Assembly: GCA_963764725.1 (NCBI GenBank)
Contig: CAVXTM010000018.1
Coordinates: 64,001 to 128,000 of the forward strand
Length of the DNA: 64,000 nucleotides
Source: an uncultured Gammaproteobacteria bacterium
GTDB taxonomy: Bacteria; Pseudomonadota; Gammaproteobacteria; JACCXJ01
Reading direction: 5' to 3'
Below, in pieces: positions 22,289 to 27,099 of this stretch (position 1 is the first letter of the stretch; the number at the start of each line of letters is the position of its first letter). The position numbers were made by a program, and so were the translations under genes. Under the pieces are notes generated by a model, which was not told the origin of the DNA, ran no database searches, and saw nothing but the letters and a program-made list of their open reading frames with translations.

Positions 22289-23254
22289 CTATATGTTGGG
22301 GTCCGGGCTGTTGACGATTTGGCGGTAAGACACTGGCGGCGTCGCCACGGCCTGTTGCATCAGGCGGTAGAAGAGAAGCCCGCGGGAGCGAGAGGTGCGC
22401 CGGTTGAAGCGAAACGTGTATTCGTCGAGGTAGTAGTCGAGGTACCTGCCACTTACCGCGCCTTGGTGAGTTCCGAGCAGCCAGCGTTTGAGCAGAGAGG
22501 CGATGCGGTGGACACCGGGCATCAGGACATGGGCCGGGTCTCCGCTGTCGGAGAGATTCGTCTTGATGCGCGTATATCCAGACTTCGTCATGTCGTTGTA
22601 CCCGCCCCAGGCGTCGGTGAGAACTTCCGAACCGGGCTCAATGCTCTCGCGCACGAAAGGGACGAGATTGGCGCCGGAGGCGTCGGCCACACGTCTCATG
22701 CGCACGCGTCCAAATCCCTTCGGTTCGTGTAGTTCGACGGCGATGACCACAATCTCCTTTCGTTCTGCTCCACGGCCACGCTTACCGCCTTTTTCGCTGC
22801 CTCCTACGAGCGTCTCGTCCACTTCAACGCGACCATGAAGCCGCTCGCGCCCAGCTCGCACCATCGCGCGTCGCAGCTTATGCAACCAGGTCCATGCCGT
22901 TTGATAGCTTCCCAACCCCAGAACCCGCTTCAGGCCGAGAGCGTTGGCTCCATGCTTCTGACTCGTCACAAACCATATCGCCGCCAACCATGTCTTCAAC
23001 GGGATACGCGTTCGCTCGAACATCGTACCTGCCGTGACCGAGATCTCTGCACCGCAATCCCGACAATGCAGGTAACCTCGTCCCGTGATCCAGGGCGCAC
23101 CGCTGGACCCACAGCGTGGACAGTGGTAACCCGCTGGCCAGCGAAGGCCCGCAAGATACTCGCGACAGCCCGCATCGTCCTCGAAAAAATCATTGAACTC
23201 GCCGAATGTCCGAGGGTAGTCGGACCCGCCGACTGGCCCTTCCCCTGTCCCCAT
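22289..23254 (-). CDS. IS1595-family transposase
   Basis: LRWP..CPRC..CRDC zinc ribbon, VEVDET, TDAW, YLDEYTFRFNRR. Confidence 0.93.
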   Translation of the reverse strand: MGTGEGPVGGSDYPRTFGEFNDFFEDDAGCREYLAGLRWPAGYHCPRCGSSGAPWITGRGYLHCRDCGAEISVTAGTMFERTRIPLKTWLAAIWFVTSQKHGANALGLKRVLGLGSYQTAWTWLHKLRRAMVRAGRERLHGRVEVDETLVGGSEKGGKRGRGAERKEIVVIAVELHEPKGFGRVRMRRVADASGANLVPFVRESIEPGSEVLTDAWGGYNDMTKSGYTRIKTNLSDSGDPAHVLMPGVHRIASLLKRWLLGTHQGAVSGRYLDYYLDEYTFRFNRRTSRSRGLLFYRLMQQAVATPPVSYRQIVNSPDPNI

Positions 23255-23269
23255 GGGTAGCAAACACTA

Positions 23270-24523
23270 GTATAACGATTCTATAAAACATTTACTTTTA
23301 TGAGTAGCGGTGTCATCCTGGCTTCCCAGGCTTATCCATGGTCTGGGAGGGTGATGATGGCGGGAAAGACAAGGCGGGCGGCGCTGGAGGTTTCGGCAGA
23401 TGAACGCGAGAGGTTGGAGCGTTTGCGGGATTCGCGCAAGGCGCCGAAGCGGGAAGTCGAACGCGCGGCGATCCTGCTGCGCTACGCCGTGGGTGAGGGT
23501 CCGGCGGCGATCCAACAGGCGTTGGGGGTGAGCCGGCCGACTATTTACAAATGCATCGACAAGGCGCTGGCGGCCGGGGTGGACGCTGGACTGAAAGATC
23601 ACTACCACCGCCCCAAGGAGCCGCTGATTACACAGCAGGCGAAGGCGTGGGTGTTGAGATAGCGTGCACGAAGCCCACCGATCACGGCTTGGCGGCGGAG
23701 TTGTGGACGCTCTCCGCGCTCGCCCGCTATACCCGCGAGCACGCCGCTGTCGCGGGGCATGGGAGCCTGGCGCAGGCGGGCAAGGCGACGATCTGGCGCA
23801 TCCTGCACGCTGCTGAGATCAAACCCCATAAGGTGGAGTACTACCTGGAGCGCCGCGATGCGCAGTTTGAAGAGAAAATGTGCGAGGTGTTGATGGTCTA
23901 CCAGGAAGTCGCCCTTGCCAATGCCGCGCAGGCCTTGGGCGAGGACGCCGGTTCGGTCATTACCGTCAGCGTGGACGAGAAACCGGGCGTTCAGGCGATC
24001 GAGACTACCGCGCCCGATTTGCCGCCGGTGCCAGGGCAGCACGGCACCTGGAGTCGGGACCACGAGTACCAGCGCCATGGAACCCTGTCCATTCTCGCGG
24101 CCGTGGACTTGCACACCGGCGAAGTCATCGCACAAGTTCATCCGCGCCACCGTAGCCGCGAGTTCATCCTGCTGCTCAAGGAACTCGATGAGCACTACCC
24201 GAAGGCGTGCACCATTCGCGTGATCCTGGACAACCATTCAGCGCATATCTCCAAGGAAACCATGGCCTACCTCGCTTCGCGGCCCAACCGGTTCATCTAC
24301 GTCCATACGCCTAAGCACGGCTCTTGGCTGAACCTGATCGAAACCGTGTTCGGAAAAATGGCCCGTACGTTCCTCAAGGCTATACGCGTCAAGTCTCGCG
24401 AGGAACTTAAGAAGCGCATCTTGCAAGGTGTGCATGAGATGAATCTCGCCCCAGTCGTTGTGCGCTGGACGAAGTTCGATCTGGGGCTGGCATAACAGTA
24501 AGCTAATTGATGAATCGTTATAC
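23270..24523 (+). mobile_element. IS630-family element
   Basis: CTAGTATAACGATTC inverted at 23267-23281 / 24512-24526; TA duplication in a CTAG target. Confidence 0.9.
23354..24495 (+). pseudogene. IS630 transposase in two frames (shift near 23650)
   Basis: HTH half then DDE half (VDEKPG, LDNHSAH, TPKHGSWLNLIE); one base short at TGGGTGTTGAG. Confidence 0.85.
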
Positions 24524-24676
24524 TAGATGTTGTGGTGACTTGCGTCAAGTGGATAGCCCGTTTCTCTAAAACACGGCTTGATGTTACGAAGGGCTTAGTG
24601 AAGTTCTCGCGAAGCAACGCGATTCGGTCATATATCATGGCTTAAAGTCGTGTTAATCGACTCGCAGTCACTACTA

Positions 24677-24705
24677 TTGACAACAGCGTTGAGGGCGACT
24701 ACATT
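24677..24705 (+). promoter_or_regulatory. sigma70 promoter of the retron-like operon
   Basis: TTGACA(24677-24682)-17 nt-TACATT(24700-24705). Confidence 0.8.
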
Positions 24706-24714
24706 ACGCTCGGG

Positions 24715-24748
24715 CGCTGGTTATCCGGCGTACTCAGCTCTTTGACAA
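24715..24748 (+). promoter_or_regulatory. boxB-like hairpin + boxA-like antitermination motif
   Basis: CGCTGG-TTAT-CCGGCG then GCTCTTTGACAA (rrn boxA is GCTCTTTAACA). Confidence 0.5.
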
Positions 24749-24762
24749 GACGGAGCCTCAGC

Positions 24763-25051
24763 GCAAGACCTTAAGCGGTACGGATTTGTTCGTGCCGAAG
24801 TTGGGGGCTAAGCCCCCCTGAATGGCCCGCGATATCCTCGTGGGCCGCGTGCTCGAAGCACGCATGCTCCTCTCATCTCGATCTGCTCGGCATGGCAGCA
24901 CGGTAATTCGTTTGACGCCTTGAGATCAGATATGTAGGGGGCAAGAGCGCGCACATGCGCTCGCGAAATCTGAGTCACTCGGTCCACTCGGGCCTCTCTC
25001 GGGGTCTTGCCACACGGGCAAGGGGCAATTTGGCCCCTGTTCAGAGAGGTT
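24763..25051 (+). ncRNA. Putative retron msr-msd-like structured ncRNA
   Basis: GCAAGACCTT(24763-24772)/GGGGTCTTGC(25001-25010) inverted repeat enclosing hairpins at 24776-24797, 24803-24817, 24824-24846, 24847-24863, ~24865-24942 and 24945-24962. Confidence 0.72.
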
Positions 25052-25056
25052 TTGTC

Positions 25057-25284
25057 ATGAAAAGCATTGCGCTGAAGGAAGCACTGCGGCTGATCACCAA
25101 AGTGCAGACTAACCCGAGAGTAGGACCTGGCCAAGGAGATCAGTTGCAAAAGGCGAAACGAGAACTGGAGTCAATCGCACGATCCGGCAAGCTGGATAGG
25201 CAAAAAGTCTTTCTAGCTATCGAGATCGTTGCGACAGTTCTTCTAGAACTCGTTGAGGACGATGCAACCCGAAGGTCGGAGTGA
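25057..25284 (+). CDS. 75-aa helical small protein, putative retron effector
   Basis: AGAGAGG RBS, ATG 25057, GTGA coupling to the HTH gene; hydrophobic C-terminal helix VFLAIEIVATVLLELV. Confidence 0.65.
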   Translation: MKSIALKEALRLITKVQTNPRVGPGQGDQLQKAKRELESIARSGKLDRQKVFLAIEIVATVLLELVEDDATRRSE

Positions 25285-25646
25285 TTCAGAATCTAATGCA
25301 ACAAGACTACGCCAAAGCGTTCCGTATCATCCGCGCGGCCTTCGGACTCCGACAGTCCGAACTGGCCGAGCGGATGCCCATTACCGCGAGCCAGCTCTCG
25401 CTCATAGAAGCCGGGAAGCGCCAGCCGAGTCTGCGTGTAGTGAATGGTTTGGCAAACGCGGTCGGTGTGCCGGCCGCACTGATTTCCCTGCTCGCATCTA
25501 CTGCGAACGACGTTGAATCGAAACCGGACGAGGACATCTCCGACCTCGCTCGTGCGCTCCTGCGGCTCCTCGTGTCAGCGAGGGAAGAGCCTCAGCGCTC
25601 GTTCAAATTTCAGGGAGTAGGAGGTGCAACCGATCCTATCTGTTAG
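25281..25646 (+). CDS. XRE-family HTH protein
   Basis: IRAAFGLRQSELAE..SQLSLIEAGKRQPS..LANAVGV. Confidence 0.88.
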   Translation: MIQNLMQQDYAKAFRIIRAAFGLRQSELAERMPITASQLSLIEAGKRQPSLRVVNGLANAVGVPAALISLLASTANDVESKPDEDISDLARALLRLLVSAREEPQRSFKFQGVGGATDPIC

Positions 25647-26550
25647 GGATCTGGCGTCGCGACTGGGCACGCCTGCTGCTCGGCTTCGTGAAATCGCCGA
25701 CGATATTAAATCGCATTACAAGGTCTGGCCGCTGTTGGATAAAAAGAAGCATAAAGTTAGACACCTGAGGGTTCCCAGCAATGAGCTGAAGGAGATTCAG
25801 CGTCGGATAAAGAACAACATACTCGCGCCGATCACGCTCCGCGAAGGAGTGCATGGTGGAGTTCGCGGCCGATCGCCACGTTCAAACGCCACCCAGCACT
25901 TGGGTCGGCCCTGTGTGGTAAATCTCGACGTCAGGGACTTCTTCCCCAACGTTCGCCACTGCGTGGTTTACCGGTTGTTTCGGCGCGAACTCGGATTCGG
26001 CCGGGACGTAGCGAGACTCTTGACTCGACTGACCACACTCAACAGTCAGCTCCCCCAAGGCGCCCCAACAAGCACAGCCGTCGCCAACGTGCTTCTCGCG
26101 TTGCCCGTCGATGGCCCAATCTCCGTCGAGGCCGAACGCTTTGACGTCCGCTATACACGCTTTGTCAACGACATCACGTTCTCCGGTTCCAATCCGAGAC
26201 CATTGATCAACGTGGTCGGTCGAATGCTGTCGCGAAGACGATTGCCCATGTATCGGAAGAAGGCAAAGTGGCACTCGAAACCAAAGCTTAAGATCACCTC
26301 GAACTCCAAGCCTCAGGAAGTAACGGGCCTAATCGTAAATTCTAGAACAGGCCCAAGTGTCTCTCCACAACACCGAGACAATATCCGGGCTGCTATTTTC
26401 GGGCTTCGCAATACGACTGATGAAGCAGTGCTGCGCGCAGCGGCGAGTTCCATTCGCGGCAGAATCGCTTACGTTCGACAATTCAACCCCGGTTCGGCCA
26501 ACCGTATGCAGCTATGTCTGGAATCAACGCTCGCTCGGTGCGGTAAATAG
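25624..26550 (+). CDS. Retron-type reverse transcriptase with non-canonical FVND motif
   Basis: LKEIQRRI, NATQH (region X NAxxH), LDVRDFFP, LPQGAPTS, YTRFVNDITFS, VTGL (region Y). Confidence 0.9.
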   Translation: MQPILSVRDLASRLGTPAARLREIADDIKSHYKVWPLLDKKKHKVRHLRVPSNELKEIQRRIKNNILAPITLREGVHGGVRGRSPRSNATQHLGRPCVVNLDVRDFFPNVRHCVVYRLFRRELGFGRDVARLLTRLTTLNSQLPQGAPTSTAVANVLLALPVDGPISVEAERFDVRYTRFVNDITFSGSNPRPLINVVGRMLSRRRLPMYRKKAKWHSKPKLKITSNSKPQEVTGLIVNSRTGPSVSPQHRDNIRAAIFGLRNTTDEAVLRAAASSIRGRIAYVRQFNPGSANRMQLCLESTLARCGK

Positions 26551-26747
26551 GGACAGGCCACGGTTTTCTATTGAACGCGGTTGCGCTCAAACCGGCATCA
26601 GCCATGCGTCTTGGGCTCCTGTAGCGCCCAGTGCATGTGCATGAGAGCGACGGCATCGGCCCCCGGCCAAAGCCTTCAGTTGTGGGCTGTTGCTCGTGCG
26701 GCGGCTGCGGTAGTTCGGCATGTAATAACACTCATCGCAGATTCGTT

Positions 26748-27099
26748 ATGAGCCATCGGATCAACATCATTCTCGACGACGATATTTGGGAGTCTCTGCA
26801 AGCCGTTCCCAAGGGTAAGCGCAGCCCGCTCGTGAATCAGGCGATTGCCGCCTGGCTCGTCCAGAATAACCGCCGCGGCGCGCTGGGGAGGCGATGAATA
26901 CATTACGCAAGCGGGATAGACCGCTCGCCGGTGCGGCGGAGGATTGGGTGCGCGAAGACCGCGATCGGCATCGATGAGGATCGTCGTCCCCGACGCCTCA
27001 GTGTTGCTCAAATGGGGGTTCCTGCCGAACGGGAAACGTATATCGAGCCAGCGTTCGCGCTACGGGATGCGGGCAGTGCAGGCTCACATGGATCCATAG
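26748..27099 (+). pseudogene. Decayed vapBC module: frameshifted antitoxin + PIN N-terminal remnant
   Basis: MSHRINIILDDD.. continuing in a shifted frame to WVREDRDRHR*; ATGA-coupled MRIVVPDASVLLKW at 26974, truncated. Confidence 0.65.

What the first reader, a model, noticed from the sequence alone, without database searches (positions are those of the whole stretch)
24991..25059. ncRNA can mask the small protein's RBS: possible RT-controlled translational switch
Seen: GGCCTCTCT (24991-24999) is complementary to AGAGAGGTT (25043-25051), which contains the Shine-Dalgarno of the 75-aa ORF. The enclosed loop holds hairpins CTTGCC/GGCAAG (25006-25022) and GGGGC/GCCCC (25022-25037). The first uses the same bases as the 3' a1/a2 arm, so the RBS-masked fold and the RT-priming fold compete. 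Inference: reverse transcription starting at ~25000 would copy the anti-SD first. The cDNA, or RNase H removal of the template, could free the RBS, so the toxin would be controlled at translation rather than by a protein-msDNA complex.
Basis: inference. Interest (0 to 1): 0.82.

Follow-up and report, generated by a model that had tools for sequence, protein, structure and literature searches.

The report
Retron RNA helix masking toxin ribosome site
The short RNA pairing that hides the ribosome-binding site of a small toxin gene is real and conserved. It belongs to a type VI retron phage-defence system whose control of toxin translation by reverse-transcribed DNA was already described in 2025, so this is a new example of a known kind.

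Summary
The letters and coordinates are correct. The locus is a type VI retron: ncRNA, 75-aa SP toxin, HTH, RT.

On the window alone the 9-bp anti-SD/SD pairing is not beyond chance (local fold z -1.39). Across 20 related loci the two arms covary: cognate duplexes average -10.1 versus -7.8 kcal/mol for non-cognate ones, and 0 of 20000 permutations match.

The helix is the innermost stem of a riboregulator arm. Two more covarying long-range helices close that arm: IR1:IR2, and 24981-92 with SP codons 25113-27.

In the a1:a2 priming fold, a covarying 5' arm (24740-59) pairs with the SD and AUG. The RBS is therefore masked in both folds, and the contrast is not masked versus free.

IR1, the next strand and the anti-SD form one 31-nt strand that ends 3 nt before a2. 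By inference this is the first template copied. That fits Retron-Vpa2, where the msDNA 5' end is needed for SP translation.

Caveats:
- HTH-SP binding is predicted, as in Retron-Sen3, so control may also act on the protein.
- This copy's RT has Asn at the first catalytic Asp; all 15 relatives have Asp.

Verdict: new member of a known kind.

The parts
24677..24705 (+). Promoter-like site: TTGACA, 17-nt spacer, TACATT. The predicted transcript start is near 24712.
   Evidence: 10 of 12 matches. The TTGAC box is conserved in the alignment of related loci.
24714..24731 (+). [quoted passage not shown]
   Evidence: MFE helices and a conserved block. It matches the feature described for cl2075 type VI retrons (Sen3 preprint, section 27).
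24740..24759 (+). 5' distal arm (D5). It pairs with the SD, spacer and AUG (24749-59 with 25046-56; CA with UG of the AUG; CUUU with AAAG 25061-64).
   Evidence: Cognate vs non-cognate: -14.02 vs -10.04, 0 of 20000, 20 loci.
24763..24770 (+). a1 (GCAAGACC), the 5' arm of the priming stem. It is followed by the conserved TTAAGCGG, with a candidate branching G at 24775.
   Evidence: The landmark was found in 20 of 21 loci. The branching G is inferred from canonical retrons (recalled).
24776..24863 (+). Four conserved msr-like hairpins.
24865..24943 (+). Long stem-loop, variable in length and sequence; the candidate msd (cDNA template) stem.
   Evidence: Inferred by analogy with SL3 of Sen3 and the msd of Vpa2.
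24945..24962 (+). Conserved hairpin GAGCGC/GCGCUC.
24969..24980 (+). IR1 (UCUGAGUCACUC). It pairs with IR2 across the whole SP gene.
   Evidence: Cognate vs non-cognate: -22.52 vs -18.07, 0 of 20000, 17 loci.
24981..24992 (+). R2 strand (GGUCC-A-CUCGGG). It forms a small hairpin in the compact fold and pairs with SP codons 25113-27 in the extended fold.
   Evidence: Cognate vs non-cognate: -19.73 vs -15.68, 0 of 20000, 20 loci.
24991..24999 (+). Anti-SD (GGCCUCUCU), the 5' arm of the helix in the finding.
25003..25010 (+). a2 (GGUCUUGC), the 3' arm of the priming stem. It overlaps the 5' arm of hairpin H1.
25005..25023 (+). Hairpin H1 (UCUUGCC/GGCAAGG). It is mutually exclusive with a1:a2.
   Evidence: Paired in 76.6% of cells, and 3 of 5 pairs change on both sides. 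The duplex test was not significant (1914 of 20000).
25022..25037 (+). Hairpin H2 (GGGGC/GCCCC).
   Evidence: 100% of cells paired in 23 sequences, and 2 of 4 pairs change on both sides.
25043..25051 (+). SD-containing 3' arm (AGAGAGGUU; core GAGG at 25046-49, 7 nt before the AUG).
25057..25284 (+). SP, a 75-aa small protein and presumed toxic effector.
   Evidence: 72 homologues; no Pfam or PADLOC family; three-helix model with pLDDT 90.9. Toxicity is inferred from Vpa2 and Sen3.
25112..25127 (+). CDS box (CCCGAG-AGUA-GGACC, codons for P-R-V-G-P), the partner of the R2 strand.
   Evidence: The Arg codon at this site is AGA in 18 of 20 loci, against 18 of 192 Arg codons elsewhere in SP genes.
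25279..25290 (+). IR2 (GAGUGAUUCAGA). It spans the SP stop codon (25282-84).
25296..25646 (+). Cro/C1-type HTH protein. The conserved start is at ATG 25296.
   Evidence: PADLOC HTH_VI 1.6e-17, Pfam HTH_31 and HTH_3, conserved N-terminus in 16 loci.
25624..26550 (+). Retron reverse transcriptase. Codon 26167-26169 (AAC) puts Asn at the first Asp of the FVDD catalytic box.
   Evidence: PADLOC RT_VI 9.1e-63. D182N is the only private change at an otherwise invariant column among 16 RTs.

Best explanation
**What it is.** The pairing is the innermost helix of the riboregulator arm of a type VI retron 'hybrid RNA'. This is one transcript that carries the retron ncRNA (msr-msd) and the mRNA of the small toxic protein SP.

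**Shown here by comparing about 20 related loci.** The SP Shine-Dalgarno can be held by two mutually exclusive partners, and both covary with it.

1. Extended fold. The local anti-SD (24991-99) holds the SD. Two further covarying helices close the arm: IR1 24969-80 with IR2 25279-90, and 24981-92 with SP codons 25113-27.
2. Compact fold. The 5' arm 24740-59 holds the SD and AUG, and a1:a2 (24763-70 with 25003-10) forms beside it. That stem is the one a retron RT needs for priming.

The RBS is therefore masked in both folds.

**Inferred.** IR1, R2 and the anti-SD are one uninterrupted 31-nt strand (24969-24999) that ends 3 nt before a2. [quoted passage not shown] Removing or covering that strand would undo all three closing helices at once and expose the RBS. 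This could happen in two ways:
- in cis, by cDNA synthesis followed by RNase H, which also cuts the 5' arm off the mRNA;
- in trans, by msDNA acting as an antisense strand.

This would be the Vpa2 type of msDNA-dependent derepression. A second, protein-level lock (HTH binding SP) is predicted as well.

In this genome the RT carries Asn at the first catalytic Asp, so its own RT probably cannot work the switch.
For: **Locus type.** RT_VI 9.1e-63 and HTH_VI 1.6e-17. The SP family has 72 members.

**Covariation, cognate vs non-cognate duplexes (kcal/mol).**
- anti-SD with SD: -10.09 vs -7.81, 0 of 20000. Core only: -8.33 vs -6.23, 0 of 20000. The neighbouring R2 strand used as a control is much weaker: -8.63 vs -7.89, 837 of 20000.
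- a1:a2: -10.93 vs -7.65, 0 of 20000.
- 5' arm with SD..AUG: -14.02 vs -10.04, 0 of 20000.
- IR1:IR2: -22.52 vs -18.07, 0 of 20000.
- R2 with CDS box: -19.73 vs -15.68, 0 of 20000. Codon evidence: AGA at 18 of 20 sites vs 18 of 192 elsewhere.

**Predicted partner of the SD.**
- In the arm enclosed by R2:CDS box, the SD core pairs with the anti-SD zone with mean probability 0.55. It is 0.5 or more in 12 of 20 loci and 0.91 in the window.
- The seven core pairs have probability 0.84-0.91 in the window.
- The predicted partner changes with transcript length. For the ncRNA alone it is the 5' arm (0.38) and the anti-SD scores 0.01. For the full hybrid RNA the anti-SD scores 0.36 and the 5' arm 0.08.
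- Cutting the RNA at a2 raises the SD unpaired probability from 0.26 to 0.46.

**RNA libraries.** Contigs identical to the window span 24779-25286 in one piece.

**Literature.**
- Vpa2: the RBS and AUG lie in stems, msDNA is necessary for SP translation, msDNA given in trans is sufficient, and the msDNA 5' end is essential (10.1101/2025.10.22.683967, sections 7-10 read).
- Sen3: the RBS lies in the basal stem, and in the IR1-IR2 conformation it moves to another stem (10.64898/2026.04.27.721009, sections 27-28 read).
Against: - No experiment exists on this locus. The start of cDNA synthesis and the branching G are inferred.
- The permutation tests do not correct for relatedness of the loci. The number of independent changes is perhaps 7-10.
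- With one fixed register, only 59.3% of cells in the helix are paired.
- For the window's full-length RNA the MFE (-252.5) pairs the anti-SD with the CDS box in a shifted register (24993-25003 with 25113-24) and leaves the SD about half open.
- The rival conformations lie within 7 kcal/mol of each other: -245.5 to -246.8.
- Blocking the template without cutting the RNA does not free the SD in silico, because the 5' arm takes over.
- In Sen3, which has very similar RNA architecture, SP is made constitutively and is controlled by HTH (abstract and discussion read).
- The RT of this copy has FVND in place of FVDD.
Confidence: 0.6

Rival explanations
1. Sen3-like system. The helices are a structural scaffold of the RNA, for binding RT and HTH and for stability. 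SP is made constitutively and is held in check after translation by the HTH antitoxin. Reverse transcription does not control SP translation.
For: - HTH-SP complex model: score 0.61, best of 3 controls 0.02. This mark was reached by 58 of 80 solved complexes and 2 of 110 mismatched pairs. The runs agree in at least 89% of contacts, and partner pLDDT is at least 76. The tool says the model supports binding but does not show it.
- The RNA features listed for the cl2075 lineage are all present: a conserved stem-loop before the 5' repeat, the RBS in the basal stem, and IR1-IR2 around SP (Sen3 preprint sections 27-28).
- In Sen3 the SP is constitutive although its RBS is predicted to be sequestered (abstract and discussion read).
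- The window's full-length MFE leaves the SD about half unpaired.
Against: - Two separate covarying maskers of the same SD are hard to explain without selection on translation.
- The Vpa2 data show translational repression in a type VI retron.
- Whether this SP belongs to cl2075 could not be tested.
- The two layers are not exclusive.
Confidence: 0.25
2. The masker that matters is the 5' arm (basal stem). The local anti-SD helix is a transient co-transcriptional intermediate. The RBS is released by processing of the 5' end of the transcript, not by reverse transcription.
For: - The 5' arm duplex is the stronger one: -14.0 vs -11.5 kcal/mol on the same target window.
- It dominates predictions for the ncRNA alone.
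- Only removing the 5' part raises SD accessibility in silico.
- RNA-library contigs of three runs (one study) start at 24779-24795, downstream of the 5' arm and a1. Contig ends at depth 4-6 are only a weak hint.
Against: - Once IR2 is present, predictions shift to the anti-SD.
- The anti-SD core covaries with the SD specifically.
- Contigs cannot show RNA ends.
Confidence: 0.1
3. Chance complementarity between a pyrimidine-rich stretch and a purine-rich SD, with no function.
For: On the window alone the local fold is not unusual: z -1.39, and 18 of 200 shuffles fold as well.
Against: Matched changes on both arms across loci. High pair probability inside the arm defined by comparison.
Confidence: 0.03

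Closest known systems
Retron-Vpa2 (type VI retron of Vibrio parahaemolyticus): hybrid RNA and msDNA-dependent derepression of SP translation (Zhang et al., bioRxiv 10.1101/2025.10.22.683967)
   Same: - SP-HTH-RT order.
- One RNA holds msr-msd and the SP coding sequence.
- The RBS and AUG lie in stems of a second arm.
- The 3' end pairs back to the first arm.
- The proposed role of the msDNA 5' end fits the position of the 31-nt strand here.
   Different: - The SP is longer here (75 aa vs 55 aa; the Vpa2 length is taken from the Sen3 preprint).
- Here the proposed target of the msDNA 5' end is the anti-SD/IR1 strand itself, with or without RNase H. The authors instead proposed a pair of 7-nt loop repeats.
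- A second SD masker (the 5' arm) is documented here.
- Nothing here was tested experimentally.
- Their covariance figures are in supplements that I could not see.
Retron-Sen3 and the cl2075 lineage (Garcia-Rodriguez et al., bioRxiv 10.64898/2026.04.27.721009)
   Same: - A conserved stem-loop before the 5' inverted repeat.
- An ncRNA within about 300 nt of the SP start.
- The RBS lies in the basal stem and moves to another stem in the IR1-IR2 conformation.
- RNA structure selection inside the SP coding sequence.
- A predicted HTH-SP contact.
   Different: - Sen3 makes ssDNA and SP constitutively and is controlled post-translationally.
- Membership of this SP in cl2075 was not tested.
- This copy's RT has a catalytic-box substitution.
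hok/sok-type mRNAs of type I toxin-antitoxin systems (recalled, no call)
   Same: A toxin mRNA is kept untranslatable by long-range 5'-3' pairing and by RBS-masking stems. Removing one strand triggers refolding.
   Different: There the trigger is 3' exonucleolytic trimming and an antisense RNA. Here the proposed trigger is a reverse-transcribed DNA. The two are not homologous.

Membership tests
Type VI retron (Mestre 2020 scheme, as implemented in PADLOC) | The RT matches the type VI retron RT profile best. | tested here: met
   RT_VI 9.1e-63 (210 bits). The next best is RT_III-A at 6.4e-53.
Type VI retron (Mestre 2020 scheme, as implemented in PADLOC) | A Cro/C1-type HTH gene lies directly upstream of the RT or overlaps it. 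| tested here: met
   HTH_VI 1.6e-17; HTH_31 and HTH_3. The HTH gene (25296-25646) overlaps the RT start at 25624.
Type VI retron (Mestre 2020 scheme, as implemented in PADLOC) | A small accessory protein lies upstream of the HTH (SP-HTH-RT order). | tested here: met
   A 75-aa ORF with 72 homologues. The order SP then HTH is kept in 18 of the 20 loci examined; in the other 2 no HTH ORF was found after SP. The RT was found by tblastn in 17 distinct related loci.
Type VI retron (Mestre 2020 scheme, as implemented in PADLOC) | An ncRNA with a1/a2 inverted repeats flanking msr-msd. | tested here: met
   a1:a2 covaries: -10.93 vs -7.65, 0 of 20000. ncRNA fold z -5.31. No Rfam family matched.
Type VI retron (Mestre 2020 scheme, as implemented in PADLOC) | An intact RT catalytic box (YXDD equivalent, FVDD in this family). 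| tested here: not met
   The window reads FVND; 15 of 15 relatives read FVDD. The family assignment stands, but this copy may be inactive.
Type VI retron (Mestre 2020 scheme, as implemented in PADLOC) | Production of RT-dependent ssDNA (msDNA). | not testable with these tools
   Needs an experiment.
Vpa2-type hybrid RNA riboregulator | msr-msd and the SP coding sequence lie on one abundant transcript. | tested here: inconclusive
   One RNA-library contig of 508 nt, identical to the window, lies on 24779-25286. Contigs do not prove a single transcript or its ends.
Vpa2-type hybrid RNA riboregulator | The RBS and start codon are sequestered in stems. | tested here: met
   Two covarying maskers. 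In silico and comparative evidence only.
Vpa2-type hybrid RNA riboregulator | The 3' end after SP pairs back to the ncRNA. | tested here: met
   IR1:IR2 is 12 bp in the window and is present in 17 of 17 loci: -22.52 vs -18.07, 0 of 20000.
Vpa2-type hybrid RNA riboregulator | Conserved 7-nt direct repeats in an msd loop and a riboregulator loop. | tested here: inconclusive
   Found: CACTCGG(T/G)C in tandem (24976-93), CUCGG three times, and GAAGCAC at 24855 and 25078. The published repeat is shown only in a supplementary figure that I could not see.
Vpa2-type hybrid RNA riboregulator | msDNA is required for SP translation. | not testable with these tools
   Needs an experiment.
Sen3-type (cl2075) post-translational toxin-antitoxin control | HTH binds and neutralises SP. 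| tested here: inconclusive
   Complex model score 0.61, best control 0.02. This supports binding but does not show it.
Sen3-type (cl2075) post-translational toxin-antitoxin control | The SP belongs to cluster cl2075. | not tested
   No cl2075 sequence was on hand. The supplements were closed.

The most novel reading that the evidence does not exclude
The first roughly 31 template bases copied by the RT (24969-24999) are a 'master strand'. It supplies the 5' arm of all three nested helices that lock the toxin mRNA: IR1:IR2, R2 with SP codons, and anti-SD:SD. [quoted passage not shown] It could act in cis with RNase H, or in trans. This would give a concrete molecular explanation for why the msDNA 5' end is essential in type VI retrons. 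It would replace the loop-repeat model and predict dependence on RNase H. The same RNA also has a second lock, the 5' arm that pairs with the SD and AUG in the priming fold. Translation and priming would then be alternatives on one molecule.
Probability: 0.3. Interest if true: 0.6.

Novelty: new member of a known kind. Interest (0 to 1): 0.35.

Why it matters
Type VI retrons are the one retron class in which the reverse-transcribed DNA is reported to switch a toxin on rather than hold it off. How the DNA opens the toxin mRNA is still open.

This locus and its roughly 20 relatives give a comparatively well-resolved map of the RNA: two alternative RBS maskers, three nested closing helices, and one contiguous strand next to the priming stem. 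That map turns the question into simple experiments, such as antisense oligonucleotides, compensatory mutants and an RNase H mutant.

It also shows RNA pairing constraining codon choice inside a toxin gene.

For this genome itself the finding is ordinary: a known defence system, possibly with an inactive RT.

Tried and rejected
- **Rfam scan of 24000-27000.** No retron family. Three weak hits at E 0.4-4.7, all far below gathering scores.
- **Fixed-register pair counts.** On the MAFFT alignment helix 1 is 55.0% paired. Re-aligning with a covariance model raised this only to 59.3%, because linker lengths differ among loci. I therefore relied on alignment-free cognate vs non-cognate duplex tests.
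- **SD..AUG with early SP codons.** This pairing appears in the window's MFE but shows no covariation: -6.70 vs -6.67, 9345 of 20000. Rejected as a conserved masker.
- **Hairpin H1 arms.** Not significant in the duplex test: -9.33 vs -8.87, 1914 of 20000.
- **Anti-SD plus CGGGG with the CDS box (shifted register).** Weak signal: 190 of 20000 and 117 of 20000. The R2 register is the supported one.
- **Simulated cDNA hybrid.** Blocking the template did not free the SD.
- **SP searches.** SP was found in 1 of 61 genomes, its own only, among the relatives searched. There was no match in the plasmid or phage collections.
- **Pfam on three ORFs downstream of the RT.** Nothing found.
- **RNA-library contigs.** They do not cover 24650-24778 or 25298-25700. 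This is a gap in contigs at depth 3-6 from one study and shows nothing about expression of HTH or RT.
- **Literature.** No paper holds 'retron' together with 'anti-Shine-Dalgarno'. Only the Vpa2 preprint holds 'hyRNA'. 'RNase H' occurs in neither preprint's main text.
- **The search of earlier findings.** No earlier findings were seen.
- **Supplements.** These were closed, so the covariance figures, cluster lists and sequences of Vpa2 and Sen3 were not compared.

**Rows dropped before counts.**
- L007, L018 and L020: duplicates of L006, L017 and L019.
- L005 and L011: only 52 nt upstream.
- L026: partial SP match.
- L015: dropped from the 5'-arm tests because it lacks the 5' landmarks.
- L004, L015 and L023 (SP cut by the contig end) and L021 (SP frame broken): dropped from the IR1:IR2 test.
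- L004: dropped as a near-duplicate of L002.
- L016: its RT reference contains a stop codon, so it was dropped from alignment A6.
Full report
**Observation.** The sequence is as described. GGCCTCTCT (24991-24999) can pair with AGAGAGGTT (25043-25051) through 7 Watson-Crick and 2 G-U pairs. The downstream arm holds the SD (GAGG 25046-49), 7 nt before ATG 25057. The two enclosed hairpins are present, and the first shares bases with a2 (25003-10). On the window alone this is not unusual: for 24985-25062 the MFE is -29.0, z -1.39, and 18 of 200 shuffles fold as well.

**What the locus is.** The ORFs downstream are:
- a 75-aa protein with no Pfam or PADLOC family;
- an HTH protein (PADLOC HTH_VI 1.6e-17);
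- a reverse transcriptase (RT_VI 9.1e-63).

This is the SP-HTH-RT order of type VI retrons. A promoter-like site (TTGACA, 17 nt, TACATT; 24677-24705) predicts a start near 24712. The upstream 330 nt fold far better than shuffles (z -5.31), and so does the RNA extended through SP (z -5.91). No Rfam family matches. IS630-like and IS1595 transposase genes lie upstream.

**Literature.** Two preprints bear directly on the finding.
- Zhang et al. (10.1101/2025.10.22.683967; abstract and sections 7-10 read) show for Retron-Vpa2 that msr-msd and the SP coding sequence form one 'hybrid RNA' and that the RBS and AUG sit in stems. msDNA is necessary for SP translation and is sufficient in trans. A 23-nt 5' extension of the msDNA is essential. 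They suggest 7-nt loop repeats as the contact.
- Garcia-Rodriguez et al. (10.64898/2026.04.27.721009; abstract, sections 25-29 and 35 read) show for Retron-Sen3 a conserved ncRNA with the RBS in its basal stem, an IR1-IR2 pairing around SP, and an alternative fold that moves the RBS to another stem. SP is nevertheless constitutive and is restrained by HTH.

Neither main text mentions RNase H. No paper in the library pairs 'retron' with 'anti-Shine-Dalgarno'.

**Relatives.** SP has 72 homologues down to 56% identity, almost all metagenomic. I obtained 25 metagenome loci and one genome locus, Sinimarinibacterium flocculans. After removing duplicates and truncated loci, 20-21 sequences cover the upstream RNA. 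The ncRNA is conserved block by block:
- a 5' stem-loop;
- a 5' arm;
- a1 followed by TYAAGCGG (found in 20 of 21 loci);
- four hairpins;
- a variable long stem;
- a hairpin;
- the stretch TCTGAGTCACTCGGTCC-CTCGGGCC-anti-SD-CGGGG-a2, then H1, H2 and the SD.

**Is the helix selected?** Linker lengths differ among loci, so a fixed register understates pairing. Helix 1 is 55.0% paired on MAFFT and 59.3% after covariance-model re-alignment. The whole-structure covariation score is 0.196 against 0.155 shuffled (1 of 500), and the unshifted register is best.

I therefore compared each locus's own arm pair with all mismatched pairs.
- Anti-SD with SD: cognate duplexes average -10.09 vs -7.81 kcal/mol, 0 of 20000 permutations.
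- The 9-nt core alone: -8.33 vs -6.23, 0 of 20000.
- The neighbouring strand as a control: only -8.63 vs -7.89, 837 of 20000.
- Matched variants are plain to see, for example CCTTTC/GAAAGG, CCTCC/GGAGG, CCTTCA/TGAAGG, TCCTTCC/GGAAGGA and TCTCTG/CAGAGA.
- The duplex covers at least 5 of 6 SD-core bases in 13 of 21 loci.

These permutations do not correct for shared ancestry.

The SD has a second covarying partner. In the compact fold of the ncRNA (MFE -166.7) the 5' arm 24749-59 pairs with 25046-56. Flanking pairs reach the AUG, and a1:a2 forms next to it. Both covary: 5' arm -14.02 vs -10.04, a1:a2 -10.93 vs -7.65, each 0 of 20000. The priming fold therefore also masks the RBS.

**The extended fold.**
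- IR1 (24969-80) pairs with IR2 (25279-90, across the SP stop) in 17 of 17 loci: -22.52 vs -18.07, 0 of 20000.
- The next strand (24981-92) pairs with SP codons 25113-27: -19.73 vs -15.68, 0 of 20000. Double changes occur even at the cost of amino-acid changes.
- The Arg codon at that site is AGA in 18 of 20 loci, against 18 of 192 Arg codons elsewhere in SP genes.
- Inside the arm that these helices enclose, the SD core pairs with the anti-SD zone with mean probability 0.55. It is 0.5 or more in 12 of 20 loci and 0.91 in the window. The seven core pairs score 0.84-0.91.
- Predictions shift with transcript length. For the ncRNA alone the SD goes to the 5' arm (0.38) and the anti-SD scores 0.01. 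For the full RNA the anti-SD scores 0.36 and the 5' arm 0.08.

**Limits for the window itself.** The full-length MFE (-252.5) uses a shifted register in which 24993-25003 pairs with the CDS box and the SD is about half open. The comparatively supported folds score -245.5 to -246.8. Energy alone cannot rank them.

**Mechanism.** IR1, R2 and the anti-SD are contiguous (24969-24999) and end 3 nt before a2. If priming is canonical (inferred), these bases are copied first, and the msDNA 5' end is their complement. That fits the Vpa2 requirement for the msDNA 5' end.

In simulations, covering the template alone does not free the SD (0.26 to 0.29 or 0.24), because the 5' arm takes over. Separating the mRNA at a2 does (0.46). 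This favours a version with RNase H cleavage, or action in trans on RNAs that lack the 5' arm.

RNA-library contigs identical to the window lie on 24779-25286 in one piece. They come from three runs of one study, so this is a weak hint only.

**Protein layer and state of this copy.**
- The SP model has three helices (pLDDT 90.9).
- An HTH-SP complex model scores 0.61 against a best control of 0.02. The mark was reached by 58 of 80 solved and 2 of 110 mismatched pairs, contact agreement is at least 89%, and partner pLDDT is at least 76. The tool says this supports binding but does not show it.
- The window's RT reads FVND where 11 of 11 family members and 4 of 4 cluster mates at 88-90% identity read FVDD. 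This is its only private change at an invariant column. That the first Asp of YXDD is essential is recalled knowledge. A sequencing error cannot be excluded.

**Verdict.** This is a new member of a known kind. The contiguous strand next to a2 is a testable refinement.

Noticed in passing
window 26167-26169: The RT catalytic box reads FVND in the window and FVDD in all 15 relatives examined. It is the RT's only private change at an otherwise invariant column, so this copy may be unable to make cDNA.
   Followed up: yes
window 24779-25286: RNA-library contigs (three runs, one study), 100% identical to the window, cover msr through the SP stop. One 508-nt contig spans the whole interval. Its left end lies 4 nt after the candidate branching G at 24775.
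   Followed up: partly
window 25112-25127 with 24981-24992: SP codons for P-R-V-G-P pair with the strand after IR1. The pairing covaries strongly, and the Arg codon AGA is nearly fixed at this site (18 of 20) although rare elsewhere in SP genes (18 of 192).
   Followed up: yes
window 25266-25280: A second, 80% identical copy of the CDS box (AACCCGAAGGTCGGA) lies just before IR2. It could extend IR1:IR2 or compete for the R2 strand.
   Followed up: no
window 24976-25004: CUCGG occurs three times in 27 nt, including the tandem CACTCGGTC/CACTCGGGC. This allows register slippage of the CDS-box pairing, and the window's full-length MFE uses the shifted register.
   Followed up: partly
window 22289-23263 (-) and 23551-24495 (+): IS1595-family and DDE_3 (IS630-like) transposase genes lie directly upstream of the retron promoter.
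   Followed up: partly
L015, L021, L016: Some related copies look damaged. L015 lacks the 5' half of the ncRNA. L021 has a shortened SP (58 aa) and HTH. The RT reading frame of L016 contains a stop.
   Followed up: no
window 25329-25375 (-): Weak match to Rfam RT-12 RNA (23.9 bits, E 0.4; gathering score 44.2) inside the HTH gene on the opposite strand. Probably chance.
   Followed up: no
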